From assembly GCF_032062105.1 (NCBI RefSeq), contig NW_026920047.1:62001-126000 (forward strand): a stretch of DNA of 64,000 nt, given 5' to 3'. How positions within the stretch are numbered: the stretch's first letter is position 1; each line of letters begins with the position of its first letter. The translations under genes were made by a program, and so were the position numbers. Source of the DNA: Saccostrea cucullata (Eukaryota). The notes beneath the pieces are model-generated. The model did not search any database. It was not told where the DNA came from and saw nothing but the letters and a program-made list of their open reading frames with translations. This document shows positions 1,489 to 63,400 of this stretch, one piece after another.

Positions 1489-2533
1489 TATATAAATACA
1501 CCTGGGTGTCTTCAAGATTTTCATGTACTGTTTGATTGTTAGTATCTCAGTAAAAATTTTTATCCATGGTTATACTTTTTCATTGCAAAAGTTTTATTTT
1601 TTTCACTTTCCCTTCGTGATTTTCAGCAACAAACAGATTGTCATTTGTATCTGTACAAAGTCCTATTGGATTATTTAATCCACAGTTTATGTACCGGAGG
1701 AACTGTCCATCCTGGTCTATGATGTGAACACAGTCATCGTTACGATCAGCTGTAAGGATGTGACTCTGACTGTTTTTGGTGATTCCTCGTGGATAGAATG
1801 GTAGGTTCTTTGGAGTTGGAGTATGTCCAGTGTACCTGAATCTCAGTTTCCCGGCCTGATTGACCACCACTACTGCTTTAGCTCCCCAGTCAGACACACA
1901 GATATCCAGGTTCCTGTTCTCAGTTATGTAATCAGAATTAAATGAATAAAGAGGTTTATCTTGATCATCAAACTGAATGGTTTGTTTCTCTGTGGAGCCA
2001 GAGTAACAGACAACTTTTGTTTGTTTGTTATCATCACTGATCATGATAACCAGAAGGTCACCAGAGGAAGTACTACAGACACCGCGAGGTTTCCAGTTCT
2101 GTAATCTGATCACCTCATCTATCTTCTCATTCTTCACAATGATCACAGTTTTATCATTGTAATCAGTATAAACTAGATCTCCACTTTTTGTCATGGCTAT
2201 ATTCAATGGATTGTTCCCTGACTTGGTTCGGATTGACTTGAGTGGTGATCCCTGATTGATGCTGTAGAGTTTCATGGTGCTGCCATTTCCACTCGTCCAG
2301 ATTTCTTCATCACTCACACAGGCCACATTGTAAAGTTGTCCATACCCAGTGTCTGTGGTGGAGGCAGTCTCTGGTTTATCAAGCAGCTGTTTGACTGGAG
2401 GAGAGGATCCAGCTTCTGGTGATTTCTGTGTTGTCTTCATGCTGTAGCCATGTTTATCTGAAGTTAATGAACTTGATGATAAGGTTCCAAACAGATTACT
2501 AATATCTCCTCCTTGCTTTCTGCCTTGTGTAAA

Positions 2534-3122
2534 GAACTATATGCGGTATTAACCAACATTTGCCCCCCAAAATCAAACTTTGATGGAGTAATATTTAATT
2601 AAGTCCTTAAACAGGGGAGTATATGCTGACTTCAAAGCACTGAATAATTTTATAAGTAATGACGTCATATGTACGTAATGACGTCACAAATATGACGTAA
2701 ATTTCAGTTTTTTATGAATTTTGCAGAAAAATGTACATATTTCGTCGATATTTTAAATAAAAGTCACCGAGCGCATGTGTGTTCAGGATAAATATTTTGA
2801 TACAATGTGTAGAATGATAATATCAATGAAATATGTCAATATTGTTCCTGAACACACATGCGCTCTATAAATTTTAAAGCTTAAATTGTTGAAATTTTGT
2901 CCATTTTGCCCTCTTTCTGAAAAAGAATATAAAATCGGACTAGTTTGTGACGTCATAAAAACAGAAATTGTGAATACACTGCTCTGGAACTATAATATTT
3001 TCTGTTAATTTATATTTCTCGTACAATTTATTGAATTCAGCACATTTCAGGAAGTTTTCAAAATTTGACTTTGGGGGGGGGGGGGGGGGGGGCAAATATA
3101 TGTAATATACCGCATATAGTTC
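2534..3122. mobile_element. Spy-type MITE inserted between AAA and TTT with no target-site duplication
   Basis: TIR gaactatatgcggtat / ataccgcatatagttc; removal restores tgtgtAAA|TTTtggta, matching paralogue C (ggtgtaaattttggta). Confidence 0.75.
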
Positions 3123-3303
3123 TTTTGGTAAAGATGGAAGAATTTTTTCAGGTAGATTTTTATATCTTTCTATATTAACAGATTTTAAATTAAAAAGCTT
3201 TGAAACTTCATTAGACTCTCAACAGTACAGGATGTATTGATTTCATCCTTGATGCCAGACATTGTCTTGTTTATTTCATCCAGTTTTTTCTGTAGAGTTT
3301 GTA

Positions 3304-6282
3304 CCCAGGTAACACAACAACGTTATTAAAACGTTATAAAAACGTTTTCAAAATGTTATAAAAACATTTTCTAAAACGTTATTACAACGTTATTTTGTAT
3401 GGTTTTTTAAACGTTATCATAACGTTTTTCAAAATCATTTTCCTGCAATGTTTTGAAAACATTTTTGAAAACGTTTTCAAAACGTTTTTGAAAACGTTTT
3501 CAGAACATTTCTTATATGTTTTAAATCGTTTAAAAATATTTTACAACATAAAAATCATTGTACTTCCTACAGTTTTAATTAGTTCAGATTTTTTACACAA
3601 ATATAATCCATGAACTGTTGTAAACATCCGCACAGTCAATAAAAGTCTTCTTAACAGAAAAGATTTGTCACAATTGAAATTTAAAACAAAAAATCACAAT
3701 ATCTTCCTTTGAAAATCATGTTTGGCACTTTTGGCATTTGGATCACTTGGACTTCTTTGTTTTAATTCTTCTGAAAAACAAAGATTTAGAGAAAAACTTT
3801 AATTAACAAAATGAATGATCATTCTCGCAAATCATTTTCGTAAAATACATATATACATGTATATCCATGCATTAGAAGAATTAAAACTATATATAGCATA
3901 CATCCGATAAATACAAGGAAAGTCTAAAATTATTTATAAAAAAAAAAATAAACTTTGTTGTTGTTTTTTTTTGACAACAGTGTGTTTTGGGCAAAAGTTC
4001 TATAAAATATATATTGTATACTAAATAAATCTATCTCTGTAGTACATTCTTGTCAGGAAACTTCAAACATACCTTAAAGAAAAAATACCCTGGTAAATCC
4101 CTCCAGCATGGTGTGCCTAAGCAAACCTTATTATGTCAAATTCCTCTCACTACATGTGATCTTTTAAAAGGTATATTTAGTCTTTGCAAACAGCCGCTGT
4201 AAATGAAATATGATATTTATTTCCAAGAATTGTAAATTGTGAATATATACATGATATTGAATATAAATACAAATCATTTAACATTTTCAAAGAAGTATTT
4301 AACTTGATAAGCCCCCCCCCCCCACACACACACACACACTTACACACACTCCCCCTCGCAAACATACTCGATTGTGATTTTCATATAGAAAATTCATATC
4401 ATTTTTTCTTCGAATGCCCATGTTATGATGAGCAAAGAAACACTCTTTTTCACTGTATATCTAGTATAGACCTACAAAATCCTATTCCTATTTCCCTAAA
4501 TCTTTTATTATTTGGTGATAGTAGTATTTCATATGCAAAAAATATGAAATTATTTGATTGTGTTCACAATTATATATCACAAACCAAAAGGTTTCATAAA
4601 TGAAGTGTAACTATGTAATACTTATTCCAGTTTATGTCTTAAATTAAATACACATTCATTGTATGTTTATAAATTGCTGTAGTTCTCATTTTTTCGATTC
4701 AGTTCATTTCCACATTTATAAACCGGTATTCATTTGTTGTTGTTTTTTTTCTTTTTCTATCTTTACTCATGTATCTTTCTTTCCCCTATGTTCTATTTAA
4801 AGTTGTGTCAGCTATATATAACTTATTGGTCATATATAAACCTGTTACTATATGTGTATTAATTAACCTTGTACCTTTGGAGAGGGCTCATATAGGCTAT
4901 GCCTGCTGCCCAATCCAATTATGTATCTTACATAATAAAATATGTTCAAATCAAATCAAACATACTCGATCTATTCAAATCATGTTTTGAAGCTCTAAAT
5001 TTTAAAATTTATCTCTTAGCCTGGGGTTATTATACTACACATGATTGACATGAAGTACACATTAATAAAGAAAACTCACACTAGACACAAGTCATAAAAC
5101 ATTTATGTAAATGCACAATCATGATAAACTTAGATGATCAGTTTACTTCAAAAACAACAAATTACCCGCCCAGTTCAAATATCAGTGAAATGTTCAACCA
5201 TTTACAAGGAATGATTTAGGCTTATACATACACTTACTACTATAATACAATTTCTTAATATATGTATACATATTGAATATTACTTAAAATTCAACATATC
5301 ATACGATGATGTAAAATATTACCTTAATCCTGTTCTTTGTCTTTCAAAATGCTGCCCGGTTTTTCAAAATCTTGATAATTTGACCTATATAGATCACGTG
5401 GAAATAGTTTGCAGCAAGGAGCGAGCGCTAACCACGGCATCCCGCTGTGCGACTCAATTAACTTTTGATAAACACATTATCAAGGAGGAAACAACACAAG
5501 TGAAAAAAAAATGCACTTTACTTTGTTGAACTACATCACATCTTAGAAAAATACATTAAAAACGGCTTTTAATACAGTTTTTTCACAATGTTTTAGGAAT
5601 GTGGCATAAAACAATTAAAGAAGAACTGAATTTAATGAAAAAAAAAAATTTGTCCAACCCCCCCCCCCCCCTCAATATGCTTTAAAAGACATCCCCAAGT
5701 AATCAATAACAAACAAACAAAAAAGTAAATGCTAAATCAGTAAATGTATTTTTTTTAGAAATGAATTATATAGATGTTTGTTGTTTCTATAACGTTTTAA
5801 CAATGTTTTCCAAACATTTTAAAACAATGTTATATTCATGTTTTCTGGTAACATTTGTACCTAGAATTAATTACAATTTTAATTCAATTTAATTTTTTTT
5901 TAAATTTGAGTAAACACAATACACCACATACTGTGCAATATATTCTTAATATCATACTGTAGTTTTTAAGAATATTTTTCCCCCAAACAATGGAATGTGA
6001 AAACACTTTTTACTATGCTTTTTAAGTAATAAAAATTATTCCTAATATCATTACATGTAAAAATGTTATGCAAAAATGTTTTAAAAAAACTTCCTTCCAA
6101 CCAGTATCAAACGTTATGAAAAACATTTTAAAAATGTTTTTGAGAAACGTTTTCTAAAATCGTCATTATAACCTATACAAAACGTTATAAAAACATTTTT
6201 CAAACGTTATGTCAAAAACGTTTTGGAATAACATCCTGACAACCCGAATATAATGTTATGAAAACGTTTTGTGCTACCTGGG
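3304..6282. mobile_element. Non-autonomous DNA transposon, CMC/EnSpm-like, with TA duplication and subterminal AACGTT repeats
   Basis: TIR cccaggtaacacaa / ttgtgctacctggg; TA at 3302-3303 and 6283-6284; many aaacgtt repeats at both ends; removal restores codons TQL|QTL of gene copy A. Confidence 0.8.
4373..4956 (+). mobile_element. 5'-truncated LINE 3' end nested in the EnSpm-like element
   Basis: Encodes ...ENSYHFFFECPCYDEQR...LLLFGD...TKRF (LINE ORF2 C-terminal Cys/His motif); aataaa then (tcaaa)n tail; 14-bp TSD caaacatactcgat at 4359-4372 and 4957-4970. Confidence 0.8.
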
Positions 6283-7229
6283 TAACTGTGTGTTTTTCAT
6301 CTCATCAACTTCAGCTTTAAGTTTCTGGACAAGTTTGTCAATTTCTCTGAGCAAGTCCTCTCCATGTTTTGTTATGGCTGTTGATAGATCTCCATATTCT
6401 TTTTCTAACTGACTCATTTTGTTTTGTACATCAGAGGCAATGTCCTGGTAGGTGGGATAAATTGTCTCGCGTAATTCACTTTGTTCTTTGATAATTTTAT
6501 CCTTTTTTTCATTTACAACATTTAAGATGTCAGAAAATTTATGACCTAGATGTTGATCAGAAGTAAGGCACTCTGAACAAACAGAAAGTTCACATTGTTT
6601 ACAGTACAATATACATTGATTGTTATGCAAAATACATGAAGGGTAGAGGGGAGTGGATTTCCTGGCCTGAAATTTGACGACTTTGTGGTCCTTGGATTCA
6701 TCAGAAATCATGTGTTCTCCTACACAAGCTGTACACAGGTTGACAAGACATGTATCACAGTGCATCTGTACCACAGCGGTCTCACACAGGTCACATCGCA
6801 TCACATCCTGGGCACTGGTACGAGGGTCCATGATTTAATAAACCTAGCATGGAAAAAAAGGCATTTCATAAAACATTTTGATATCACTTCAATAAAATAA
6901 ACAGTGCCAAAAAAATTACCAGTGATCAATAATTTCTCATTTCTCAGGCATTGCTGCATCAGGACAAAATCTACCACATGAATCATTGAAAAGGGAAATG
7001 ACTCAAATTTCTAGATTTCAAAGTTAAAAAAAAATTTAATTACATGTATTCACCTTTTCACAGGTGCTTAGATTTTTGTTCTTATAAGTAAACAATATAT
7101 TTCTTGTTAATTTATAGTATTTAATGCATTAAATTTAAAATAAATGTTTGGAATAAAAATTGCAAATCTTTAATACATATTTTATTTAATGAGAACAAAA
7201 ATTTAGAATAAGTTGATATCATCAATGTT

Positions 7230-8118
7230 GCCTGCATGGTGCAGTGGTTAGAACGTCTTACTCCAGAGTTGCAAAGTAACGAGTAAACCCTTACATCGCA
7301 GGTTCAAATCTCACTGTGAGACATGGAGACCGCTCCTTTGGATGAGACTGCATATAAAGAGCTTAATTCGGTAATAACCAATATTTGCCCCCCAAATCAA
7401 ACTTTGATGGAGATATATTTAATCAAGTTCGTAAACAGGGGAGTATATGCTGACTTCAAAGCACTGGATATTTTCATAAGTAATGACGCCATATGTACGT
7501 AATGACGTCACAAACATGACGTAAATTTCAGTTTTTTATGAATTTTACAGACAAATGTACATATTTCGTCGATATTTTGAGTAAAAGTCACCGAGTGCAT
7601 GTGTGTTCAGGATCAATGTTTTGATATAATGCGTAGAATGATGATGTAAATGAAATATGTCAGTATTGTTCCTGAACAAACTTGCGCTCTATAAATTTTA
7701 AAGCTAAAATTGCTGAAATTTTGTCCATTTTGTCCTCTTTCTGAAAAAGGATATAAAATCGGACTGGTTTGTGACGTCATGAAAACAAAAATTGTGAATA
7801 CACTGCTTTGACACTATAATATTTTCTGCATTTATATTTCTTATACGATTTATTTAAGTCAGCACATTTCAGGAAGTTTTCAAAATTTGACTTTTGTGGG
7901 GGCAAATATATGCAATATACCGCATATAGTTCTTTAACAGAGGTCCCTTGTCACAGTAGGTGCTGGCTGGCATGAAAAAGATCCCTCACTGCTCAATACG
8001 GCCGTGCATGAGTGTCGAGTTTAGGACAAAATTTGTAGCTCTCCATCGGCAAGTGGAGGCATTTCTATATGAGTGAAAAAATCTTGAAAGGGACGTAAAC
8101 AACATACAAAATCAATCA
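7230..8118 (+). mobile_element. tRNA-derived SINE with Deu/Nin-like core, split by a MITE
   Basis: A-box tggtgcagtgg, B-box-like ggttcaaatc, core tttggatgagac...acagaggtccc...aaaagatccc, aatc tail; homologous to 19434-19730. Confidence 0.7.
7359..7932. mobile_element. Second copy of the Spy-type MITE
   Basis: Closely similar to 2534-3122 over its length; again flanked by AAA on the left and TTT on the right. Confidence 0.8.
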
Positions 8119-9557: not shown

Positions 9558-11000
9558 TCAATGCTCAGGTCTGTATTGTGTTATAGTACAAGTGACACCG
9601 AGCCACTCAAACTCAATGCTCAGGTCTGTATTGTGTTATAGTGCAAGTGATCTCATCTGATTCCACCGAGCCACTCAAACTCAATGCTCAGGTCTGTATT
9701 GTGTTATAGTACAAATGACACCAACACACTCAAACTCAATGCTCAGGTCTGTATTGTGTTATAGTACAAGTGATCTCATCTGATTCCACCGAGCCACTCA
9801 AACTCAATGCTCAGGTCTGTATTGTTTTATAGTACAAATGACACCAAGTCACTCAAACTCAATGCTTAGGTCTGTATTGTGTTATAGTACAAGTGACACC
9901 AAGCCACTCAAACTCAATGTTCAGGTCTGTATTACCGGTATACATAGTCATATATATTATCTGTATTGTGTTATAGTACAAGTGACACAGAGCCACTCAA
10001 ACTCAATGCTCTGGTCTGTATTGTGTCATAGTACAAGTGACATCTAGCCACTCAAACTCAATGCTTAGGTCTATTTTGTGTTATAGTACAAGTGACACCA
10101 AGACACTCAAACCCAATGCTTAGGTCTGTATTGTGTTATATTACAAATGACACCGAGTCACTCAAACTCAATGCTCAGGTCTGTAATGTGTTATAGTACA
10201 AGTGACACCTATCCACTCAAACTCAACGCTCAGGTCTGTATTGTACATAGTCCTGTATATTATCTATATTGTTTTATAGTACAAGTGACACCGAGCCACT
10301 CAAATTCAATGCTCAGGTCTGTATTGTATTATAGTACAAGTGACACCGAGCCACTCAAATTCAATGCTCAGGTCTGTATTGTATTATAGTACAAGTGACA
10401 CCGAGCCACTCAAACACAATACTCAGGTCTGTATTGTATTATAGTACAAGTGACACCGAGCCACTCAAATTCAATGCCCAGGTCTGTATTGTGTTATAGT
10501 ACAAGTGATCTCATCTGATTCCACCGATCCTCTCAAACTCAATGCTCAGGTCTGTATTGTGTTATAGTACAAGTGACACCAACACACTCAAACTCAATGC
10601 TCAGGTCTGTATTGTGTTATAGTACAAGTGACACCATAAACCACTCAATCTCAATGCTCAGGTCTGTATTGTGTTATAGTACAAGTGACACCGAGCCACT
10701 CAAACTCAATGCTCAGGTCTGTATTGTGTTATAGTACAAATGACACCGAGCCACTCAAACTCAATGCTCAGGTCTGTATTGTGTAATAGTACAAGTGACA
10801 CCGAGCCACTCAAACTCAACACTCAGGTCTGTATTGTGTTATAATACAATTGACACCGAGCCACTCAAATTCAATGCTCAGTTCTGTATTTTGTTATAGT
10901 ACAAGTGACACCGAGCCACTCAAACTCAATGCTCAGGTCTGTATTGTGTTATAGTACAAGTGACATCAAGCCACTCAAACTCAATGCTCAGGTCTGTAAT
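9558..11000. repeat. 55-bp minisatellite, about 25 units, with two recurring insertion variants
   Basis: Unit caatgctcaggtctgtattgtgttatagtacaagtgacaccgagccactcaaact (e.g. 10681 to 10736 period); variant with tctcatctgattc near 9651, 9774, 10509. Confidence 0.95.
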
Positions 11001-12336
11001 GTACATAATCGTATATACATGTATAATACAGCATTGCTGTTGCACTAAAGGTGCATAGCTACATTGCATAGCTGCATGGTCTCAATTCTGATCGATTCCT
11101 GCAATTGTCGGGGGTTTCCGTCCTTAAACCACAAAAGTAGATCTATTATTTCCAAATATCCCGTATATCGAATTCGGTTCTTTAAATTATCCTTACTTTT
11201 AAATTAATTATAAAGAATAATTATTTTGAGGCTAAAAAGGGGATTTAACAGTAAAATTTAATGCAAATAATTCTATATAATAAATGCTTATATTTGTATG
11301 AACATGATACTTCAGGTACAAGGAATCGGTCCTACCTTCAAACTAACGGTCAATCTACAGAACACGTCCCTCAGTCAGCCCTCCACCAGTCTACTGATTA
11401 CGTTCTTATAAGAAGAAAAACTGTACTCCTTCAAAAAATCCTTCATTGAGGTCTGTATTCTTCCATAATTTTCATTTCAAACTAAGATCTTTTTAAGAAA
11501 TTATATTTTTTGTTGTAAAATTACAATGTATGATCAGATGAAATCGAAACATTTTTTTATACTAAACGTCTTTCAATGTTTATCAGGTGCCTTTGCTGGT
11601 TCCCGGCCTGAACTATGCCTTTGAGACATTTGTTGAATGTTTGAGTGACAAAGGGGTCTCAGACAATATCAAGGTATGGGGACAGAAATTAATTAAGATT
11701 ATATAGTGAAGCAAACAATCTGTGCATAAAGCATATGGTGGGTGTTACCTATCAACAGATCTAAAGAATGCTTACTTCTAAATGGCACCTGATCCCACCT
11801 CTTATGTATGAAGAAGTCTCTGTTTGCTCTGCTCCGAATTCATACTGTTGTCAATGGACTTTGAGCTTGACAGTACTGTTTATCTTCATATTTCATCATG
11901 ATATAAGATGCCTTCATTGTATTTGCATCTTTGAATTTTAAGCGTTCATGAGTCATATTGTTTTAAAATAGACTGCTACTTTAAGATTTAAAATTCAAAC
12001 TTTTAATTGTTGCACAAAGAATAAAAAATGGCAAAAAACCTTGAATTTGCTCTATATTTATGACCTGCTTTGGTCAGGCCTTTGTTTTGAAGGAAGGTTC
12101 CCAGGTCCCTTTAATTACTGGGGTAATTAGCATGCCTGCACTGATGTGGAACCTGTGTCTAAAGTCTGCACCAAGAATGAGGATCTCTTTGAATAAACCG
12201 TAAAGACTGAATAACTTAACAGCATGTCATAGAAATAACATTGTAACTCAGATACTGGAGACTTGATGCATGTAGTGTTGAAAGTAACATTAGGAATATT
12301 ACATTTTTTAATATTTCGCAGAATAGGTAAAAAATA

Positions 12337-13161
12337 CGGTGGTATACAGTGTATTTAGGACACGCAATTATTTTTTTTTTATTGTCAGAAAAAAATTATC
12401 TTGTGAAAACGACATAATTATCTTGTGAAAACGAGATATTATCTTGTGAAAACGAGATAATATCTTGTGAAAACGACTTATTATCTTGTGAAAACGTGAT
12501 AATATCTTGTGAAAACGAGATATTACTAGTATCTTGTGAAAACGACTTATTATCTTGTGAAAACGAGATATAATCTTGTGAAAACAAGATATTATCTTGT
12601 GAAAACGACTTATTATCTTGTGAAAACGACATATTATCTTGTGAAAACGACTTATTATATTATGTCGTTTTCACAAGATAATATCTCGTTTTTCACAAGA
12701 TATTATCTCGTTTTCACAAGACATTTTCTCGTTTTCACAAGATATTTTCTCGTTTTCACAAGATAATATCTCGTTTTCACAAGATAATATTATTTTCTCG
12801 TTTTCACAAGATAATATCTCGTTTTCACAAGATAATAAGTCGTTTTCACAAGATATTATCTCGTTTTCACAAGATAATTATGTCGTTTTCACAAGATAAT
12901 ATCTCGTTTTCACAAGATAATAAGTCGTTTTCACAAGATAATATCTCGTTTTCACAAGATAATAAGTCGTTTTCACAAGATAATATCTCGTTTTCACAAG
13001 ATAATAAGTCGTTTTCACAAGATAATATCTCGTTTTCACAGGATATTATCTCGTTTTCACAAGATAATAAGTCGTTTTCACAAGATATTATCTCGATTTC
13101 ACAAGATAATTTTTTTCTGGTATTAAAAAAAAAATAATTTCGTGTCCTAAATATACCACCG
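12337..13161. mobile_element. Foldback-type MITE built of inverted arrays of a 21-bp repeat, TA duplication
   Basis: Termini cggtggtata..tttaggacacg / cgtgtcctaaatataccaccg flanked by TA; ttatcttgtgaaaacgagata arrays switch orientation at about 12658. Confidence 0.85.
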
Positions 13162-13286: not shown

Positions 13287-13287
<1 letters not shown>

Positions 13288-27898: not shown

Positions 27899-28162
27899 AA
27901 GTTAAAATAAAAAACAAAAAAGTATATATATATACTAGGCTTCAAGTATTAAACGTTTTATTAGGTATTTATCTGAACACTAAAATCTAATGTAGACATT
28001 GACCTAGCTGCATATTTATATGTTCTCTATATTCAGCAAATAAAGGCACATGAAATTACTATAAATCAATTAAGCATCTCTTATCTGAGAGTGTTGATAT
28101 TAACGAATTAAACTCAGAAGCCAAGTTTTCAAGAACTAGACTACACTACAATGTTTCACATT

Positions 28163-29716: not shown

Positions 29717-30115
29717 TTTGGCGCGAATCAGTGACAGTGCTGTCAGACGATATTTTTAAAATTCTACAATGTACAAATAATTAAACTGCCGATCGAGTAA
29801 AACCTGTAGCACACTTACAAATACAAGTCAAAATTGCAGAAAAGACCACAGATTATACAAGAATATGTAAAGACAAAAAAACTACATATTTAGTTTTGAC
29901 ATTCAGATTATGCAAGCAGTGGCGAATCCAGGAATCATGAAAGGGGGTAGTTTGGAGTCGGGGTAGGCGCCTACAGACACAACAAAAATGATTTATTAAA
30001 TCTTATCTATTTGTTGGACATAAAAGGGGAGGGACGGACCTTTTGCAACTTCTCAGACCTTACCGATGAACGGGAAAACAAAGTAAGTTAGTGTAGAAAA
30101 ATAGCAATGAAAGAT

Positions 30116-31412: not shown

Positions 31413-33107
31413 TCACTGCAGATATTTGATTTTCTTCACTTTTCCATTTCTATACTGAGCAACGAACAGATAATCATTTGAATCTATACATAATCCCATG
31501 GGCTCACTCAGACCACAGTTTATGTAACGGACGAAGTGCCCATCCTGGTCTATGACGTGGACACATAGGCTATTATCATCAGCTGTAAGGATGTGACTCT
31601 GACTGTCTGTTATGATTCCTCGTGGATTGAATGGCTCAATCTTTAGACCAGGCGTACGTCCAGTGTACCTGAATCTCATTTTCCCGGCCTGATTGACCAC
31701 CACTACTGCTCCAGCTTTATGGTCAGAAACACAGATATCCAGGTTCCTGTTCTCAGTTATATGTCTGTAATAAAAACCCGTGGAATAGAGAGGTTTACCT
31801 TGATCATCAAACTGAATGGTTTGTTTCTTTGTGAAGCCGGAGTAACGGACAACTTTTGATTGTTTTTCTCGAATATTATACATGATAACCAGCAAATCAA
31901 AAGAGAGCGTTATACAGACACTGTAAGGACCCCATTTCTGTGTTTTTATTATCTCTTCTATTCCTTCATTCTTCACAATATTCACTGAATTATCCATGTG
32001 ATCGGTATAAACTAGATCTCCATTTTTCGTTACTGCTAAGTCATAGAGTTTGTTTCCTGACTTGGTTGTGATTGACTTGAGTAGTGATCCTTGATTGATG
32101 CTGAAGAGTTTCATGGTGTTGTCAGTTCCACTTGTCCAGATTTCTTCATCACCCCGACAGGCTACATTGAGTAGATTTTCATATCCAGTGTGGATGTTGG
32201 TGACAGTCTCTGGTTCATCAAGCAGCTGTTTGACTGGAGGAGAGGATCCAGCTTCTGGTGATTTCTGTGTTGTCCTCATGCTGTAGCCATGTTTTTCTAA
32301 TGTCATGAAACTTGGGGCTAAGACGCCGAAAAGTTTTCTGATCTCTTCTCCTAGGATTTTGCCAGGTGTAAATTTTGGTAACGACGGCAAAATTTTTTGC
32401 GGAAGATTTTTATATTTGTCTATTGTGGTTGTAAGATTAATTGCTAAGAGCTTTGTTATGTCATTAGAATCAACAAAAGCTTCAATCCAACTGATTTCAT
32501 TCTTAATATCAGAAATTGTAACGGTTATTTCATCCAGATGTTTCTGCAAAGTTTTCAACTGTTTGATTTTCAAATCATGAACTTCATCTTGAAGGTTCGT
32601 CACATGTTTCCTTATTTCTCTGTGCAAGACATCTCCCTGTTCTTCTATGGCAGCTGAAAGATCTTCACAATTCTTTTCTATCTGACTTATTCTGTTTTGT
32701 ATGTCAGAGGCAATGTCCATATATGTTGGACATATCGTCTCCTTTAGTTCCATTTGTTTATTCATAATCTTTTCCTTTCTTTCATCAAGAACTTGTAGGA
32801 TTTTTGATAATTTATGGCCTAAATGTTGATCTGAAGCAACGCATGTGGCACACACAAGAATATCACATTGATTACAGTACATTTCACATTGTTCTTTGAC
32901 ATGAGATGCACATCCAGGGTAGAGGGGAGTGGTTTTGCGCAGATTGCTTGTAACAATTTCATGTTTCTTGGACTTATCAGAAATCGTATGTTCTCCCACA
33001 CAGGCCTTACATAGGTTGACAAGACATGTATCGCAGTGCATCTGTACCACAGCGGTCTCACACAGGTCACATCGCATCACATCCTGGGCACTGGTACGGG
33101 GGTCCAT
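31413..33107 (-). CDS. TRIM-like B-box/coiled-coil/NHL-propeller protein, copy C (564 aa)
   Basis: Intact ORF with the same domain order; acceptor tttag at 33123-33124 just upstream of the ATG. Confidence 0.92.
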   Translation of the reverse strand: MDPRTSAQDVMRCDLCETAVVQMHCDTCLVNLCKACVGEHTISDKSKKHEIVTSNLRKTTPLYPGCASHVKEQCEMYCNQCDILVCATCVASDQHLGHKLSKILQVLDERKEKIMNKQMELKETICPTYMDIASDIQNRISQIEKNCEDLSAAIEEQGDVLHREIRKHVTNLQDEVHDLKIKQLKTLQKHLDEITVTISDIKNEISWIEAFVDSNDITKLLAINLTTTIDKYKNLPQKILPSLPKFTPGKILGEEIRKLFGVLAPSFMTLEKHGYSMRTTQKSPEAGSSPPVKQLLDEPETVTNIHTGYENLLNVACRGDEEIWTSGTDNTMKLFSINQGSLLKSITTKSGNKLYDLAVTKNGDLVYTDHMDNSVNIVKNEGIEEIIKTQKWGPYSVCITLSFDLLVIMYNIREKQSKVVRYSGFTKKQTIQFDDQGKPLYSTGFYYRHITENRNLDICVSDHKAGAVVVVNQAGKMRFRYTGRTPGLKIEPFNPRGIITDSQSHILTADDNSLCVHVIDQDGHFVRYINCGLSEPMGLCIDSNDYLFVAQYRNGKVKKIKYLQ

Positions 33108-40256: not shown

Positions 40257-40292
40257 CTGCAAACTTAGCTTACAGTTAGTAAGACTGACTAT

Positions 40293-42775: not shown

Positions 42776-43805
42776 GTCCCAGAGGCCTTGGTTGGTTTGG
42801 GGGGAACCCTCTACTCTGAAATCTGCTTGGGGGCTGGCGGGGATGTTCGGCTTGGGATGGGCGAAAGTTTTCTGTGCGAAATGCCTGACTGTTGTGCCAG
42901 CGGCAGTTTATGAGTGGGTGATTATTGGAGCATTTAATGCAAGCATGTTGATAAGAGCAGTATGGTCTTCCGCATGTGCCTTTGTAATTGAAGTCAAAGC
43001 ATTTTGGCGATTTAGATGTATAATTTGGGGTTTGCTGTGATAGAGTGTTGTGGCCATGAGACACATACAAGAGCCATAATTCTGCGTCGACACACCCCCA
43101 GTCGAGAGTATGGTTCCTGGAGCGCTTTAGTCTAAATTGTATGTCATAATTGAGCCAGTTTAAGTTTGATGATCGCTGTGCAGCAGTGCGTATGATGTTA
43201 ATGTATTTAAGGATTGATTGAATGTGTTCAGGGAACTTAGTCAAGTAAATGCTGCTGAAAATGAGGAAAGCATTTGTCCATGTTTCAATTGAAGTTATTT
43301 TGATTTCTTTATGCTTAGCCTTTAGCACTAATTCGCCGGCAACAAATGCGAGCTGTTGCTGGGGCTCGTCATTTGGTTTGAGAGGAAGTAATTTATGCAA
43401 GTGAATGAATGCATTATCATATATGTTTTGTCTCAGGTTGTCTGGGACATGGACGCCCAATGCGTCTGAAACGCCACATAATGAATTTGGTGTTGTTGCA
43501 CTTGAATTAGATAATGTATTAGAGCTGCCTGAAGTACCTGGAGAAAGCATTGTTGGCGATGCCTCAAACTCTAAGGGGTCAGGGATGTCTATTCCTGAGG
43601 AAGTTGTAGGCTGGTTTGATAAGGCTGGAGGTATGGCGTCAGGAGTGACCTGGTTCGGTTGAGTCACGGTGCTTGTAGCAGTGGTGACCTGGTTCGGTTG
43701 AGTCACGGTGCTTGTAGGCCTGGATGCTTTGGCCTTTTTGGTGGCAGCTGGAGCTCGGCCGGGCCTGGCATATGGAGACTTTGTAGTCCTTTTTGCACGG
43801 AGCAT
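42750..43805 (-). CDS. Gag-like ORF1 of the Ngaro element
   Basis: W..YD.QFR motif and C-terminal CFDFN...C....C.YQH.C..C...H....C zinc fingers; ATG at 43805 follows a tttatag acceptor; 39-bp-period internal duplication TSTVTQPNQVT. Confidence 0.85.
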   Translation of the reverse strand: MLRAKRTTKSPYARPGRAPAATKKAKASRPTSTVTQPNQVTTATSTVTQPNQVTPDAIPPALSNQPTTSSGIDIPDPLEFEASPTMLSPGTSGSSNTLSNSSATTPNSLCGVSDALGVHVPDNLRQNIYDNAFIHLHKLLPLKPNDEPQQQLAFVAGELVLKAKHKEIKITSIETWTNAFLIFSSIYLTKFPEHIQSILKYINIIRTAAQRSSNLNWLNYDIQFRLKRSRNHTLDWGCVDAELWLLYVSHGHNTLSQQTPNYTSKSPKCFDFNYKGTCGRPYCSYQHACIKCSNNHPLINCRWHNSQAFRTENFRPSQAEHPRQPPSRFQSRGFPPNQPRPLGLGPNPSQR

Positions 43806-45184
43806 GTTTCTATAAAACAAACAACTGTGTAACTTGTGTTTAACATGTACATAATTCATTATTATTATTATTATTTGCTTATATAAATTTTTACTATTAA
43901 TTTTTTTTTGTTTGAATCTGAGATTGTAAGTTATTAACATCGTTTACTAATTATGAATGGTCAAATTATATGTAGAGTTAAAGCCCTTTTGTTTAACGTT
44001 TGGCATGCCGCCATTAACGGATGGTGATGATGAATATTGATCCAGCAAAATCTGCTGACATCTTAAGTGCTGAGGCAAGGGAAACGCCCAATTCGCTTCC
44101 AATGCTTCACTAGATGTTTAATACATACCGATGACCGGTGGAACGATACCTGTACAATATAGTAATCCACGTAATGGGTTGCAACTTGGAGGTGATTTTT
44201 CTGTTGATGCTGTCTGATCAAAATCGTCGAGCGAAGAGGATGTGTGCGCAAGCGCATTTAAGGCTTGGGGCTATTTTGGAAATTTGGTTGAGGACAGGGG
44301 AGTTATCGCGCTTAGGCTATTCTTCTTCGATAACTGGCATTTACCGCACATGGCGGTAAATGCAATTATCATTGGATCAAATGTTGATTGACGTTTTTCA
44401 TACTAATTGTTAGTCCATTATTTTGAAAACTGAATTGACGACAGATTTTGCCGTTTTTCCCAAATCATGACAAGGAGCACACGGCGGTTGTGACCGGTAG
44501 GCAGGGGATGCTCACTCCGCCGTGGCACCTGATCCCATCTCTAATGTTTTGGAGGAAGAAAGAAAAAGAAATTTTGTTTAGAAAGATGTGTGAGTGCAAG
44601 ATCATTTAAAGCTACAGAACTGTAGCACTCTGCTTGAGAATACTCTGAATGTGAATTAAAAGGGTATTATGTAAAATCAACCTGCATATAAATCTTTCCT
44701 TACAATTTTATTGAGTGATGTGTACAGCTTTTCTGATACCTTTCTGACAGCTGATAAATTTCATTTAAAGGTAACCCCTATTGATGTTCTAAAAATCAAC
44801 ATACCCGGTATTTGTAAATAGCTTTTCTAAAAATGTTTTATAACAGACTCTGGAAATATAGGGGACATGAACTCCATAAAAGGAAGCTGGTGATAGAAAA
44901 GCTGAAGTATACCAAACACACCTTCCCTCTTGTCCTTGGGCACATAGATCCATTGTGCCTTGCTTACAGCTGATGTTCTTTGAATACACTGGTATGAAAT
45001 AATTCCTCCTTTCAATTTCCTGGCATTAAAAAGTATTATCATAAAATATTGTTAGTTTTGAATATACTAGTACTTGTTCAATATTTCCCAGAAAATAATT
45101 TTAATGTATCATTTATGTGTACAGGACTTTTGTAAACTGAATGTTTCTCCACACATCTCTTGCTCTGGATCTTTAGCTTGATTC

Positions 45185-57707: not shown

Positions 57708-59402
57708 TCACTGCAGATATTTGATTTTCTTCACTTGCATATTTCTCCATTCAGCAACAAACAGATTATCATTTGTATCTGTACACAGTCCCTGGGGATA
57801 ACTTAGTCCACAGACTATAAAACGGAGGAACTGTCCATCCTGGTCTATGATGTGGACACATTCATTGTTATAATCAGCTGTAAGGATGTGACTCTGACTG
57901 TCTGTTGTGATTCCTCGTGGACTGAATGGTTGGTTATTTGGTGCAGGAGTATGTCCAGTGTATCTGAATCTCAGTTTACCAGCATGATTGACTACTACCA
58001 CTGCTTCAGCTCTATAGTCAGACACACATATATCTAAGTTTCTGTTTTCAGTAATATTTCTGCAAAAAGGTCCAGATGAAAAGAGAGGTTTGCCTTCACC
58101 ATCGAACTTTATGATTTGTTTCTGATTGAAACCAGAGTAACGGACAACTTTTGTTTGTACGTAGTCATCATTTTCCATGATAACCAATAGGTCACCGGAA
58201 GAGGTACTACATGCAGATCGAGGTTTCCATTTCAGTAGTCTGATCACCTTCTGAATCTTCTTATTTTTCACAATGTTCACAGTTCTATCATGGTAATCAG
58301 TATATATTAGATCTCCACTTAAAGTCACTGCAATGTCATCTGGTGCTTTCATTGACGTAGTTGTGATTGACTTGAGTGGTGATCCCTGGTTGATGCTGAA
58401 GAGTTTCATATTGCTGTCATCTCCACTTGTCCAAATTTCTTCATCACTCATACAGGCCACGTTATGAAGGTGTCTATAACCTGTATCTATATCTATGGTG
58501 GTGACAATCTCTGGTTCATCAAGCAGTTGTTTAATTGAAGGGGAGGATCCAGCATCTGGTGATTTTTCTGTAGTCTTGAAGCTGTACCCATGTTCATCTG
58601 CAGTTAAAGAACTCAGTGATAAAGTTCCAAACAGTTTGACAAGATTTTTTCCTTCGATTTTCTCTGGTTCAAATCTTGGCAAACATGTTACAAGCTTTTG
58701 TGGAAGGTTTCTATATTTTCCTACAATAGATTTAATTTTCAACAGCTTTGAAATGTCTTTAGAGTTCACATTTTTTTCAACTGCATTGATTTCATCCTTA
58801 ATTTCAGATATTTTCTTGCTAATTCCATCCAGATGATTTTGTAGAATTTGTGACTGTGTGATTTTCATTTCATTAACTTCAGCTTTAAGTTTCTGGACAA
58901 GTTTGTCAATTTCTCTGTGCCAGTCCTCTCCATGTTTTGTTATGGCTGTAGAGAGATCTCCATATTCCTTTTCTAACTGACTCATTCTGTTTTGTACATC
59001 AGAGGCAATGTCCTGGTAGGTTGGGCAAATTGTATTAATTAATTCATTTCTTTCTTTTATAAAAATCTCTTTCCTTTCATCCAGAACTCGCAAGATTTTA
59101 GATAATTCATGACCTAGATGTTGATGTGATTCAATGCAGCTAATGCAGATAGGAATGGCACATTGATTACAATACATTTCACATCGTTCTTTGACATGAG
59201 AATTGCATCTTGGGTAGAGAGGGGTAGATTTTCTAAGAGCAAATCTGACTATGTCATGTTTTTGGGATTCATCAGATACCATATGATCACCAACACAGGC
59301 CTTACACATGTTGACAAGACATGTATCACAGTGCATCTGTACCACAGCGGTCTCACACAAGTCACATCTTATCACATCCTGGGCACTGGTACAAGGGTCC
59401 AT
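57708..59402 (-). CDS. TRIM-like B-box/coiled-coil/NHL-propeller protein, copy E (564 aa)
   Basis: Intact ORF; acceptor tttag at 59416-59417 places the start at MDPCTS (59402). Confidence 0.92.
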   Translation of the reverse strand: MDPCTSAQDVIRCDLCETAVVQMHCDTCLVNMCKACVGDHMVSDESQKHDIVRFALRKSTPLYPRCNSHVKERCEMYCNQCAIPICISCIESHQHLGHELSKILRVLDERKEIFIKERNELINTICPTYQDIASDVQNRMSQLEKEYGDLSTAITKHGEDWHREIDKLVQKLKAEVNEMKITQSQILQNHLDGISKKISEIKDEINAVEKNVNSKDISKLLKIKSIVGKYRNLPQKLVTCLPRFEPEKIEGKNLVKLFGTLSLSSLTADEHGYSFKTTEKSPDAGSSPSIKQLLDEPEIVTTIDIDTGYRHLHNVACMSDEEIWTSGDDSNMKLFSINQGSPLKSITTTSMKAPDDIAVTLSGDLIYTDYHDRTVNIVKNKKIQKVIRLLKWKPRSACSTSSGDLLVIMENDDYVQTKVVRYSGFNQKQIIKFDGEGKPLFSSGPFCRNITENRNLDICVSDYRAEAVVVVNHAGKLRFRYTGHTPAPNNQPFSPRGITTDSQSHILTADYNNECVHIIDQDGQFLRFIVCGLSYPQGLCTDTNDNLFVAEWRNMQVKKIKYLQ

Positions 59403-62400
59403 GGTTATATTTTGCCTAAATTGAGAAGAATATTGATAATCGCTCATTATATATCTACATGTATACATTCCAAATGCAATGATTAGGATAATAAGTTAAA
59501 TCTTGGTGAAGAAAATGAACGGAAATATATGATTTATGAATCTGTTTCCTTAAATTTTAATTTTTGAGAGGGTGAATAGCAAATCATGAAATAAAGGAAT
59601 AACTTTTGACAAAATATTAAACTAGTTTAACAGTACATTTATAATATTCCAGAAAAGAAATTGCTATTCATGACTCCATCTTCACTGATGAACAACATTG
59701 TTTAAAATGTGGATGTGCTTTATCTTTAAAATCCTCTGACCTCTCACTCTGGAGATATTCGGACAGAAAATTAAAATTTCAAAGTTAAAGAAGACTGCTT
59801 TGGTTTACTCTGCTTTCCGATCAGTTCAGGGTAGCATATGTTAATGCTTGTTAAAGTTTTGACTTATATACTGAAAGGAAAAAGAAACGCAGGGTAGCAT
59901 AATATTCGAAAAAAAAATTGACCGCATGACCGAAAATAACGAAAATTTGTCAGAAGAGAAATTTAGTTTCTATGTACCTTAATCAGTGTTCAAAGGTACT
60001 CAACCGTAAAATGTATGACATCATGTAGGGAAAACGCGAAAAAGCCCAAAACACGTGCAATTTGATGACGACGAGTTTGTCAACAATTTTTGTTGCACAA
60101 TTTGATGCATCTGAGGTATACACATTGTTTTTCAATATTTAAAGACGATATGAATTTCTTGCAATCTTGGTACAATGTACGGAAGTTCCATGGGGTATGG
60201 TTTTCGAATTGCCTGAGAAATAAAAAAGCAACAACTCAATAACTAAACAGTTTCTTGTGAATTTACCTCATAAAACTTGTTACCCGTTGTAAGAGAGGAC
60301 ATGGAATGGTTTTCAATCAACTATGACGATGACGTTAACGCGAAACAGAGTCATGTTACGAGCGGATTATTCGTCCTGCCATCTCTTAAATCGCAATCCT
60401 ACTACCACAAAAACCGCCTTTTATACAGTAGACTATTGTTATCATTACATTCCCCGAAAAAAAGAGAACAATTTCGCAATTTTGGCTTTTTGAGACAGTC
60501 AGCTTACTGTTGTGTTCCTCTCACTGGCGCATGCGCGTGTCGTATGACTAATTTTTTGGCGTGGTTACCCATGTCCAATATTGCCAGGGTTTAAAAAGAT
60601 ACTCACTCTCATGAATTTTATGGAAAGGAGAAATAACGCTCATGAGAGATGTACAGGAGAAACATTGAAGATAACGTTAGCTTTCGATTTTCACTTTTGG
60701 GGGTATCGTCTTATGAGCTTCAATAACACATGAATTATTAGACAAAATCAAATGGGATTTTGGATATGTCTTTTGAAAGATGATTTTAAAAGTTAGATAG
60801 GAATAATGAAAAAAATTGAAAGAAAAATAAATTTATTCACCTCAAAAGTTTACCCTACGTTTCTTTTTCCCTTCAGTATGTACAGGTTTACATACATTTA
60901 TAGATATGGACTCTTCCATGTAAAAATTATATACTGTATGCTAAAATTGAGGTCATATTTGAAATTAATATTTCAATTTATACATACTGTCATTATATGT
61001 ATGTCATCATTCTGTCATCATTTAAGTTATGGAACAAATACTTATTATATCTAGTATATAAGTCTTAAGTGGGGTGAATCAATACAGCCTACCTGTTTGT
61101 TCAATAAATGGTCTCAAGTTTTTAATCCCTCTAATCTGTAGTGTGGAAAGATATTTTAAAATGACATCTAATAAATAAAAAATTATAAAGTGAATCCCAT
61201 AATTAATAAGATGGCTTTAATGACGTCTTTCCTGCATGTAAGCCAAATACACAAGCAGAGTCTCTTTTATCACTTAATATTTAGTGTTCAAACTTCCTGT
61301 TTTAGTTTTACTAAGAATTCGGGTCAAGTATCTTTTTTTCAATCTTGCAAACTGATACACATCTTAAATAACAAATAGTTATATTTGGGCACACACCATT
61401 CATCATCTACGAAGATATAATTCCGCACAATTTAAAAAAAAGACGTGTTTTCATAATATATGAAAACATGATAATCATCAGCTAAATAAATTTACACTAG
61501 TTATTCGGAGAAGATCTAAGCTACCGAATATTTTTAAGAATGGAGGCTTATATAACAACTTTGCTACATGCAATATATGGAGATAACAAACAGTTTTAAA
61601 AACTCAAAGTCCATTCAAGTAATACAAATAAAGAACAGGGCAAACACGGACCTCTAAAAAATTAGAGAATTATGAGCACATTACGCAAATACAAAATACT
61701 CCTGAAAGATCAGGAACTCGTGATCAAGATCTCGTGAAAAAAATAATGTCGGAGAGATTGCATTTTTTGGGGCATTCAGATGTATTAATAGATATGATCA
61801 GAAAAATGAAAGATGGTTTTTTTAGATGTCATTCATAAATTTCACACAGTAAAAATCATAAGTTGACCTTAGCTGGTTTCATGTAGCACACCACCCGAAG
61901 GGCATTTTTATTTATAGCAGCAAAAACTAAATGATAATCTTCATGTAAATTCATGTAAATTAGTTTAATCCAACTTTTTAAAAACACATTTTCTCTGAAT
62001 ATGAAACCATGCCTTCCGGTAGAACAACATGGCTTGACGAGGGGTGGTGACTGCACAGTTTAAGTGTAATCAGTCACTGTTAATTTTTTATCATATGTGT
62101 ATGTTTACTCCTTTATACAGATGATATCGCTCATATGATATTGTTTATCTATCAACACGATCTGATCAACAGTTGTCACAATGCTTCAATGCTTTTTACA
62201 TGAAATAGATTGGTCAAGCAAAGTGGATTCATATAAGTGACTGTATGTGTTAAATAGATGTTAAATAGGTGATCCGAATCTCTCATTGTTTGTGGTTGTG
62301 TATCAGATAACATGTTTTGTGTTTTCCATACCCTCGCAAAGGTTTTGAGATAGAAAACACACAACTGGAATCATATATACGTACCCAACCACAAACTATG

Positions 62401-63180
62401 AACATCCTCTCTGTTTAATACATTCAGTAAAATATGACAAATATTGCATGTAGATCCGGTGCCGTGGAGGAGTAAGCATTTTCAGGCCGACCGGACAAAA
62501 CCTCGACAATAGCTTGCCTTGTTTTTAAAATTGTAAATGTGAAAGATTTCTGATATAGTGTACATTCAAGATGGTTAAAATCCTAAACTACGAAATAAAA
62601 TGAGGAAGCAATGGGGGTTATATTCTTACTTTAAAACAAACAACACGAAATCATTTTATGTGTAAACGGATGTTTAATCTTTGCAAATAATATGGCCTCA
62701 TATATTTATAAAGTGACGAAGTTTTACAAGATGCATGTATGTAGCAAAAAAAATCAATGTTTTAAAAACATACATATTCTGACGATGAACAGCAGAACAA
62801 ACCTTACACAGAGAATGTATATAAATTTTAATCATAGACATGGAGACTGCTTCACAGTAAACAACTGGACAAAAGATATCAATACACTTAAAAAAACAAA
62901 AAAATCTTGCAAATTAGTTTTCCATTTATTTGAAGGTAAATTTTAGACCAGTGCATATCTTAAAAACTTGTGTTGGATCTAAAATGTTTCGATTAATTCG
63001 ATTTAATAATTTATGACATGAATGTTTTAGAGTGTATTCAGATTGATTCAGCAAAGTAAATCCTATTCCCCTTCAGCAAAACAATATGATTTTTCTTTCA
63101 TTTTCATAGTCTCTCACATTCATTTGACAAAAGTACATATTTTCATGAACTACATGTGCTTAATTTCTTTATTTATGGTT

Positions 63181-63400
63181 TCACATTAGAAATTTGATTT
63201 TCTTCACTTATTTGCTTCTATATTCAGCAATAAACAGATTGTCATTTGTATCTGTACATAGTCTTTATGGTTCTGAACTGTCCATCCTGGTCTATGATGT
63301 TGACACACTCATTGTTTAAATCAGCAGTAAGGATGTGACTCTGACTGTCTGTGGTGATTCCTATTGAAGACTGAATGGTTTGTTTTTAGAGCAGGAATAC
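63181..63400 (-). pseudogene. 3' fragment of TRIM-like gene copy F
   Basis: [28 protein letters not shown] and [14 protein letters not shown] blocks with internal deletions; cut off by a Penelope-like fragment at about 63400. Confidence 0.85.

What the first reader, a model, noticed from the sequence alone, without database searches (positions are those of the whole stretch)
1580..63400. Tandem array of RING-less TRIM/NHL genes with antibody-like framework/hypervariable pattern on the propeller: candidate diversified intracellular receptor system
Seen: across copies A/B/C/E, nearly invariant blocks ([47 protein letters not shown]) alternate with short positions that differ in almost every copy: GQLYN/HLLYN/ENLLN/RHLHN; NNPLN/CRPSD/NKLYD/KAPDD; KPRG/RPDG/GPYS/KPRS; SFNSDY/SSGPAKRL/STGFYYRH/SSGPFCRN (with an indel); SDWGA/SDHKA/SDHKA/SDYRA; ADRNDD/ADYIND/ADDNSL/ADYNNE; NNPIG/SEPLG/SEPMG/SYPQG; AENHE/AEYRR/AQYRN/AEWRN. 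Established: in NHL propellers (Brat, LIN-41/TRIM71) the residues around the P-x-x-hydrophobic motif and after the conserved Asp form the top, ligand-binding face. Inference: the array is under diversifying selection on one binding surface, with birth-and-death turnover (3 intact, 3 dead), as expected for an innate immune or restriction-factor repertoire. Expansion of this family in bivalves is known; I am not aware of its ligands or function being described.
Basis: partly seen in the sequence, partly recalled or inferred. Interest (0 to 1): 0.75.

Follow-up and report, generated by a model that had tools for sequence, protein, structure and literature searches.

The report
Oyster hypervariable propeller sensor gene family
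This oyster DNA holds six tandem copies (three intact, three broken) of a very large gene family whose six-bladed propeller changes unusually fast on one face only, under positive selection, which makes the family a likely but untested repertoire of immune sensors working inside the cell.

Summary
Observation confirmed and extended. Six minus-strand copies (3 intact, 3 broken) encode RING-less B-box/B-box/coiled-coil/NHL proteins of a large oyster family (Saccostrea-type window; 2,544 related clusters among 8,000 scored). In 105 paralogues all 14 sites above 3 bits lie on the propeller top face; none of 47 bottom-loop sites exceeds 2 bits. A Crassostrea virginica radiation varies at 18 of the same 25 sites. 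Those sites have dN/dS 2.1 in the window and 1.5 in 18 independent loci (M1a/M2a 2dL 68, omega 2.9; non-top sites 2dL 0) and are rich in Tyr, Trp, Arg and Asn. Segmental exchange is evident. A sister family fuses a related propeller, variable at the same sites, to Roc-COR and a HEPN domain. Best reading (0.65): diversified cytosolic sensors of foreign molecules that work like TRIM5/finTRIM but with an NHL propeller and no RING. Ligand, induction and function are untested; window-only tests are weak. Oyster TRIM expansion and immune association are in print; the one-face selection was not found in 10 searches. This scan noted a like pattern in sea urchins before.

The parts
1580..6831 (-). Copy A, broken: B-boxes and coiled coil at 6286-6831, a short middle piece at about 3126-3302, propeller at 1583-2530
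   Evidence: intact near-copy P0110 differs at 20 of 486 compared residues
2531..3125 (.). Element with terminal inverted repeats inserted in copy A; 89% alike to 7355-7935
3303..6285 (.). About 3-kb element with terminal inverted repeats inserted in copy A
15683..17365 (-). Copy B, intact, 560 aa, B-box/B-box/coiled coil/NHL propeller, one coding exon
31413..33107 (-). Copy C, intact, 564 aa
46046..47657 (-). Copy D, pseudogene, recent duplicate of C (1422 of 1604 aligned bases identical), 66-nt deletion, frameshifts, 3 premature stops
57708..59402 (-). Copy E, intact, 564 aa; reference for residue numbers; B-boxes about 13-52 and 64-102, helix 96-213, propeller 293-563
   Evidence: RNA-guessed contigs 98% alike over 1,000 and 905 nt
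57711..58526 (-). Six-bladed NHL propeller of copy E; hypervariable residues 310, 311, 328, 330, 353, 355, 371, 393, 395, 410, 414, 445-447, 463, 464, 466, 494, 511, 514, 535, 537, 552, 553, 555
63181..63370 (-). Copy F, 3' fragment (last blades only), broken

Best explanation
These genes belong to a large oyster family of RING-less B-box/coiled-coil/NHL proteins whose propeller top face is under diversifying selection, and they likely act as dimeric sensors inside the cell that bind fast-changing foreign molecules, more likely pathogen proteins or nucleoprotein surfaces than one fixed RNA motif. Steps: (1) shown: tandem duplication, loss by transposon insertion and frameshift, and exchange of segments between paralogues; (2) shown: about 25 sites in the d-a and b-c loops change faster than silent sites while the bottom face and strands are conserved; (3) predicted: the coiled coil forms an antiparallel TRIM-type dimer that presents two propellers; (4) inferred: each paralogue's top face binds a different ligand, and B-boxes add higher-order assembly and avidity as in TRIM5; (5) inferred, weakest: lacking a RING, they pass the signal or the captured target to a shared partner (a RING ligase, autophagy or a signalling adaptor) through the conserved parts, or block the target directly, while a sister family carries its own Roc-COR switch and HEPN nuclease.
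For: One-face variability in two separate radiations: Saccostrea/Ostrea set and C. virginica set, 18 of 25 sites shared, Fisher p 4e-17. Pairwise identity 0.19 at the 25 sites against 0.85 in the rest of the propeller; 108 of 108 site strings distinct. dN/dS at the 25 sites, picked on 104 other proteins: 2.10 (silent rate fixed, p 6e-8) or 3.78 (free, p 0.004) in the five window copies, 1.92 in the three intact ones, 1.51 in 18 unrelated loci with silent rate 1.00; rest of propeller 0.27-0.42. Site models on the 18 loci: M1a/M2a 2dL 68.0, omega 2.90 on 6.4% of sites, M8a/M8 2dL 56.2; 15 of 16 sites with posterior above 0.5 on the top face, 13 of 16 among the 25. F61 frequencies give 62.5; non-top sites alone give 0.0; 0 of 24 neutral simulations, 16 of them with conversion tracts, reached 68 (maximum 26.0). 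Make-up of the 25 sites is not drift-like: Trp 4.7%, Tyr 12.2%, Arg 11.3%, Asn 10.1% against 1.0, 5.9, 6.1, 5.9% expected at 34% GC; Leu, Ile, Val, Pro depleted; variable N-terminal sites show no Tyr/Trp excess. Six S. echinata/S. cucullata models join a related propeller (35-39% identity) to Roc-COR and HEPN_DZIP3, five of them with a B-box between; in the six fusion-type propellers aligned (five of these plus P0287) the same sites differ 0.71 against 0.15-0.20 for strands and bottom loops. Dimer model of residues 60-265: ipSAE 0.64, best of 3 controls 0.00, runs agree in at least 95% of contacts, pLDDT 86, antiparallel; the mark was reached by 21 of 30 microbial and 17 of 29 eukaryotic solved homodimers and 0 of 23 and 0 of 30 monomers, and solved TRIM dimers exist, so the pass may be from memory. 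Family is transcribed: 3,720 oligo-dT reads laid, mostly from paralogues. In print, oyster genes annotated as TRIM are tied to poly(I:C) priming, OsHV-1 survival and Perkinsus tolerance, not mapped to this family.
Against: No ligand, induction or activity was tested. Window-only site models are weak (M1a/M2a p 0.02-0.03) and in the full-length run all 9 sites with posterior above 0.5 lay in the N-terminal half, none in the propeller (set includes two pseudogenes). Top loops as a whole have dN/dS 0.62-0.86, not above 1. Variable N-terminal sites gave 1.49 (silent rate fixed) in five copies, so part of the excess at picked sites may be picking bias (1.00 in the three intact copies). Masking codons near indels keeps 6 of the 25 sites and lowers 2dL to 23.5, inside the range of the heaviest conversion simulations. 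The codon models are my own code with one tree and scaled branch lengths, naive empirical Bayes, no multi-nucleotide term. Whole-gene dN/dS is high (0.39-0.50), showing relaxed constraint and many dying copies. The fusions are automatic gene models, and 41 of 56 long hits are two or three family genes joined end to end, probably model chimeras. The top face is mostly mildly positive (72 of 108 positive, 21 negative at the 25 sites), so RNA is not excluded. 6 of the 21 TRIM-annotated rows seen in one poly(I:C) table were not regulated by priming.
Confidence: 0.65

Rival explanations
1. Diversified RNA-binding repressors: like Brat, LIN-41 and Mei-P26, each propeller binds a different RNA (viral or transposon transcripts) on the top face and silences or hands it on. 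This is still a conflict role, with RNA as the ligand.
For: The variable face is the RNA-binding face of Brat (PMC4015489 passages); Brat also lacks a RING (recalled; listed as TRIM-like in PMC3503706); Tyr, Trp, Arg, Asn, Lys are common at the sites and net charge is positive in 72 of 108; bottom loops are acidic (-5 to -10), as described for Brat; the sister fusion ends in a HEPN domain with an R-x4-5-H motif in 5 of 6 models; NHL top faces are known to change RNA specificity between subfamilies (PMC5908797 passages).
Against: No basic residue is fixed at any of the 25 sites; 36 of 108 have zero or negative net charge there; known RNA-binding NHL faces are strongly basic and conserved within a subfamily; closest solved folds are TRIM2/TRIM3, judged unlikely to bind RNA like Brat (PMC9634614 passages).
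Confidence: 0.17
2. Substrate adaptors in a non-immune conflict or host process (for example against selfish elements or in gametes): conserved N-terminal half docks a shared ligase, variable face picks targets, as recalled for nematode F-box and MATH-BTB adaptors.
For: Conserved coiled-coil core (residues about 125-200 nearly invariant), no RING, one variable binding face.
Against: Fusion of a sister propeller to Roc-COR-HEPN and of a family member behind a HEPN domain (P0279) points to defence circuits; published links of oyster TRIM-annotated genes are to infection.
Confidence: 0.1
3. Neutral birth-and-death: redundant duplicates have lost their binding function, so the exposed top loops drift freely and recombination inflates the tests.
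For: Half the copies in the window are dead; 30 of 48 metagenome loci had no open frame across the propeller, some because the contig ends; whole-gene dN/dS 0.39-0.50; recombination is present; top loops overall below 1.
Against: Equally exposed bottom loops stay at dN/dS 0.16-0.34; the signal vanishes when top sites are removed from the same sequences; 0 of 24 neutral simulations reach the observed statistic; the residue make-up departs from drift; the same positions recur in separate radiations.
Confidence: 0.08

Closest known systems
TRIM-NHL proteins (class VII / subfamily C): TRIM2, TRIM3, TRIM32, TRIM71/LIN-41, Mei-P26, Thin
   Same: B-box, coiled coil and six-bladed NHL propeller closed by an N-terminal strand; best Foldseek hit TRIM2 NHL 7b96, E 3e-17, TM 0.78 by target, 22% identity; best profile hits TRIM3 and TRIM2.
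   Different: No RING and no filamin domain; hundreds of tandem paralogues rather than three to five genes per genome (PMC4015489); one coding exon; the binding face is the least conserved part instead of the conserved one.
Drosophila Brat / C. elegans NCL-1
   Same: RING-less two-B-box, coiled-coil, NHL layout (recalled); the same top face (d-a and b-c loops) is the ligand face; acidic bottom face.
   Different: 18-20% identity in the propeller; Brat has a fixed basic face for one RNA motif, here the face is hypervariable and of mixed charge. Orthology not tested.
TRIM5alpha and fish finTRIMs (recalled)
   Same: Works like: B-box/coiled-coil dimer carrying a C-terminal domain whose exposed loops are under positive selection, in clustered, lineage-specific expansions.
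   Different: Those use a PRYSPRY/B30.2 domain and have a RING; here an NHL propeller and no RING. Antiviral activity is proven there, untested here.
Expanded invertebrate conflict proteins with variable beta-propellers (TRADD-N, Death-like, HEPN fusions; PMC8195603, passages)
   Same: Propellers, B-boxes and HEPN domains in Crassostrea and Branchiostoma expansions, proposed there as invader sensors; P0279 joins HEPN to a family member.
   Different: The passages read describe WD40 propellers on TRADD-N proteins and do not describe this stand-alone family, its one-face selection or the NHL-B-box-Roc-COR-HEPN layout.

Membership tests
TRIM (RBCC) E3 ligases | N-terminal RING finger | tested here: not met
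   No RING family in Pfam scans of B, C, E or in the precomputed domains of the hits; no RING pattern in six frames of the window or RING core in 286 family proteins; start Met aligned in 107 of 108.
TRIM (RBCC) E3 ligases | One or two B-boxes | tested here: met
   zf-B_box, two stretches, E 1e-9 to 2e-11; Cys/His ligands invariant.
TRIM (RBCC) E3 ligases | Antiparallel coiled-coil dimer | tested here: met
   Helix 96-213 in the model; dimer model 0.64 against best control 0.00, may be from memory of solved TRIM dimers. Prediction only.
TRIM-NHL (class VII) | Six-bladed NHL propeller at the C terminus | tested here: met
   24 strands in six blades, pLDDT mostly 80-94; Foldseek top hits TRIM2, TRIM3, Thin, Brat, LIN-41 NHL.
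TRIM-NHL (class VII) | Filamin domain before the propeller (TRIM2/3/71) | tested here: not met
   Linker 231-292 is about 60 residues, pLDDT under 50, no filamin hit.
TRIM-NHL (class VII) | Conserved, strongly basic top face | tested here: not met
   Top face hypervariable; net charge of top loops -4 to +8 across 108 proteins. Counted from sequence, no electrostatic surface computed.
TRIM-NHL (class VII) | RNA binding by the propeller | not testable with these tools
   Needs binding assays.
TRIM5/finTRIM-type restriction factors | PRYSPRY (B30.2) domain | tested here: not met
   C-terminal domain is an NHL propeller.
TRIM5/finTRIM-type restriction factors | Positive selection on exposed loops of the C-terminal binding domain | tested here: met
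TRIM5/finTRIM-type restriction factors | Pathogen binding and restriction, immune induction | not testable with these tools
   Only indirect: published TRIM-annotated oyster genes could not be matched to family members.
Brat/NCL-1 subfamily | Orthology by propeller phylogeny | not tested
   No tree with Brat was built; Brat ranks below TRIM2/3.

The most novel reading that the evidence does not exclude
The NHL propeller is a general variable sensor module of marine invertebrate cells, a counterpart of the LRR in NLRs and of PRYSPRY in vertebrate TRIMs: oysters keep hundreds of RING-less dimeric sensors whose binding faces are reshuffled by segment exchange, alongside a sister class in which a related sensor gates a Roc-COR switch and a HEPN RNase, and sea urchins use a like propeller with B-box, TIR or Death front ends. 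It would be an undescribed class of germline-diversified cytosolic immune receptors.
Probability: 0.3. Interest if true: 0.85.

Novelty: new variant of a known kind. Interest (0 to 1): 0.68.

Why it matters
Oyster genes annotated 'TRIM2/3/45/71-like' turn up again and again in studies of resistance to herpesvirus and Perkinsus and are read there as RING E3 ligases. If many of them are this family, they have no RING and their business end is a hypervariable binding face. That changes what to test: ligand capture by single propellers, and haplotype and copy-number differences at about 25 named residues as markers for resistance breeding. It would also give an invertebrate without antibodies a large intracellular recognition repertoire on a scaffold known so far for developmental RNA control, and the NHL-Roc-COR-HEPN sister class offers a direct assay (ligand-gated RNase).

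Tried and rejected
No whole genome is held for this window, so genome-wide copy number was not counted. Window-only site models gave weak, partly contrary results. With three intact copies and a free silent rate the estimate at the 25 sites ran to infinity (no silent change), so only the fixed-rate value 1.92 is quoted. A RING on an upstream exon was looked for and not found. Gene conversion as the sole cause of the conserved blocks: silent divergence in blades 4-6 is lower (0.06-0.22) than in the N-terminal half (0.12-0.43) in most window pairs, so some homogenising is likely, but amino-acid constraint remains (dN/dS 0.3-0.4). A donor for the blade-2 stretch that separates copy A from P0110 was not found (best 40 of 47 residues). 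The incompatibility test for recombination was borderline in the Saccostrea set (15 of 300 permutations) and clear in C. virginica (0 of 300). Read laying did not list allele differences in full (432 rows hidden), so no pN/pS between alleles, and showed no splice joint for the 5' leader; runs with small shares were not used. Matching C. virginica family members to the Perkinsus study by LOC prefix showed only neighbouring ids, none of those shown being on my list (first two places per term only). 15 C. virginica pairs that share a LOC id differ at 240 of 374 variable-site positions against 406 of 4,237 N-terminal ones; this hints at allelic hypervariability but is biased (pairs had to be under 90% alike, ids may sit on neighbours), so it is not used as evidence. 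P0277 (Ig-Roc-COR then propeller) and P0278 (WD40) are single models and were set aside as probable chimeras. PMC7653742 and PMC6289776 held no passage on this family. A Pfam scan of the whole alignment was over the size limit and not repeated.
Full report
What is there. The window is 34% GC animal DNA. Six copies of one gene lie on the minus strand. B, C and E are single open frames of 560-564 aa with an AG just before the start codon, as at a splice acceptor. A is split by two inserted elements with terminal inverted repeats, D is a decayed duplicate of C (88.7% DNA identity), and F is a fragment. A LINE and a DIRS/Ngaro-type element lie between copies. Pfam gives two B-boxes and NHL repeats and no RING. 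A search with E scored 8,000 candidates and found 2,544 clusters at E 1e-20 or better; the best 120 are from Saccostrea cucullata, S. echinata, Ostrea edulis and a few Crassostrea/Magallana, about 27 of them (my count) from one 33-Mb S. echinata contig. The window's own protein and two S. cucullata models share a contig length, so the window is most likely a Saccostrea rock oyster. At 50% clustering 421 representatives score under 1e-30; Atlas look-alikes of the propeller are mollusc clusters.

Fold and faces. AlphaFold2 on an alignment of 108 sequences gives B-boxes, one helix at 96-213, a low-confidence linker and a six-bladed propeller whose sixth blade is closed by strand 293-303. Foldseek's best matches are the NHL domains of TRIM2, TRIM3, Thin, Brat and LIN-41. 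I had no coordinates, so faces were assigned from the model's strands: loops b-c and d-a form the top, a-b and c-d the bottom, as defined for Brat, whose top face binds RNA (PMC4015489, passages).

Variation. I used 105 of the 120 hits (550-600 aa), window copies left out. All 14 sites above 3 bits are on the top face; bottom loops average 0.30 bits with none of 47 above 2; top loops exceed coiled coil and linker. These hits were picked by likeness to E, which favours a shared framework but not its position. A second search from a distant locus gave 110 C. virginica proteins (isoforms and alleles included): 25 propeller sites exceed 2 bits, 18 of them the same, 2 on the bottom. The sites are rich in Trp, Tyr, Arg, Asn, Asp and Gly and poor in Leu, Ile, Val and Pro against a drift expectation, a make-up recalled for antibody and other binding surfaces but also compatible with nucleic-acid binding.

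Selection. DNA came from the window (A, B, C, D, E) and from 18 of 48 metagenome loci that had an open frame across the propeller (40-57% identity to E, host DNA by homology). I wrote GY94 site models. Window alone: M1a/M2a p 0.023 (full length) and 0.03 (propeller), M8a/M8 p 0.016 and 0.008; in the full-length run the 9 sites with posterior above 0.5 were all N-terminal, a result against the reading. With the 25 sites fixed beforehand from 104 other proteins, dN/dS is 2.10 in five window copies, 1.92 in the three intact ones and 1.51 in the 18 loci, against 0.27-0.42 for the rest of the propeller and 0.16-0.34 for bottom loops; all top loops together give 0.62-0.86; variable N-terminal sites give 1.49 and 1.00. 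Blind site models on the 18 loci: 2dL 68.0, omega 2.90, 15 of 16 sites on top, 13 among the 25. Checks: F61 62.5; codons near indels masked (154 of 255 kept, 6 of the 25) 23.5; non-top sites 0.0; 24 neutral simulations, maximum 5.2 without and 26.0 with 60 conversion tracts. I take positive selection on the top face as well supported, pending standard software.

How the repertoire is made. Distances in the N-terminal half and in the propeller framework correlate at 0.32 against 0.67 for random splits of the same sites (0.57 against 0.76 in C. virginica), and the variable sites of blades 1-3 and 4-6 are uncorrelated: paralogues exchange segments and the variable sites saturate fast. Copy A and its intact near-copy P0110 differ at 20 of 486 residues, 9 of them in one stretch of blade 2. 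Nothing here points to somatic rearrangement; it was not tested.

Expression. Contigs of runs guessed to be RNA match E over 1,000 nt with 20 differences and 905 nt with 12; in an oligo-dT run 3,720 reads were laid, 55 at 99% or more and most at 88-95%, so mostly paralogues; depth is zero just upstream of the start codon. The family is transcribed; induction could not be tested.

Clues to function. Among 56 longer relatives, 41 are family genes joined end to end, but six Saccostrea models place a related propeller in front of Roc-COR and HEPN_DZIP3, five with a B-box between. They share the junction sequence across two species, keep a P-loop in 6 of 6 and an R-x4-5-H motif in 5 of 6, and the six fusion-type propellers aligned vary at the same sites (0.71 against 0.15-0.20; P0283 left out, P0287 included). 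This sensor-switch-nuclease layout recalls NLR-type defence proteins and is the best indirect sign that the propeller senses invaders. A dimer model of residues 60-265 passed (0.64 against 0.00; caveats in the For line), with the near-invariant stretch 125-200 at the interface, so close paralogues might also form mixed dimers (inference).

Literature. Ten searches found no paper on this family's RING-less layout, one-face variability or selection; the library lacks most subscription journals, so this is weak. Seen as passages: PMC8382680 lists a bivalve-expanded B-box orthogroup; PMC9437489 finds ten TRIM-annotated genes among 121 candidates for herpesvirus survival; PMC9892467 finds 79 TRIM transcripts, mainly TRIM2/3-like among the shared ones, in a Perkinsus-tolerance module and treats them as RING ligases (supplements searched by id prefix); PMC6971885 and bioRxiv 10.64898/2026.05.15.723513 report TRIM genes in resistant or infected oysters (the preprint's supplements are closed and may name members); in PMC7064767 I saw 21 of 34 supplement rows: 11 sustained, 6 not regulated, 4 other patterns after poly(I:C). 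None could be tied to this family by id. PMC8195603 proposes variable propellers in invertebrate expansions as invader sensors. PMC9070667, PMC9634614, PMC5908797 and PMC3503706 were read as passages for NHL structure and TRIM classes. TRIM5, finTRIM and F-box/MATH-BTB comparisons are recalled. Two earlier notes of this scan describe a like one-face pattern in sea urchin propeller genes with B-box, TIR or Death front ends; they prompted the search for fusions, were not checked here and are not counted as support.

Verdict. The finding is real. The family is TRIM-like but fails the RING and filamin tests, so it should not be filed as a TRIM E3 ligase; it works, most likely, like TRIM5/finTRIM sensors with an NHL propeller in place of PRYSPRY (0.65; RNA-binding variant 0.17; non-immune adaptor 0.10; neutral 0.08). 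New variant of a known kind; interest 0.68.

Noticed in passing
P0283-P0289 (S. echinata and S. cucullata gene models): Sister family with an N-terminal NHL-type propeller, B-box, Roc GTPase, COR and C-terminal HEPN_DZIP3 domain; the propeller varies at the same top-face sites. An Atlas cluster of 100 mollusc Roc-COR-HEPN proteins scores 0.91. Not found described in one search.
   Followed up: partly
P0279 (C. virginica model): HEPN_DZIP3 domain and an unassigned stretch that looks TRADD-N-like (by eye, recalled) in front of a full B-box/coiled-coil/NHL unit; single model.
   Followed up: no
window 38335-44370, minus strand: DIRS/Ngaro-type tyrosine-recombinase retrotransposon: open Gag-like, RT/RNase H, recombinase and SGNH-like frames, with two pairs of identical split direct repeats (38335-38590 = 39079-39334; 38928-39083 = 44215-44370), so probably young.
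   Followed up: partly
window 24646-29755, minus strand: LINE element with ORF1 ending in an SGNH/GDSL-like domain and an endonuclease-RT ORF2 that breaks near its 3' end.
   Followed up: no
window 9558-11002, 12395-13110, 13523-14368: 55-bp tandem array; two 21-bp arrays in inverted orientation facing each other; a 168-bp repeat array.
   Followed up: no
copy A against P0110, residues 351-384: 9 of the 20 differences between these near-identical genes fall in one 34-residue stretch of blade 2, like a conversion tract.
   Followed up: partly
P0236-P0276: 41 public models of about 1,000-1,300 aa are two or three family genes end to end; probably annotation chimeras of neighbours, real read-through not excluded.
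   Followed up: no
copy E residues 313, 314, 356, 396, 448, 449: Starts of strand a are only half-variable (one residue in 65-90% of paralogues), which may mark a semi-conserved centre inside the hypervariable ring; geometry not checked.
   Followed up: no
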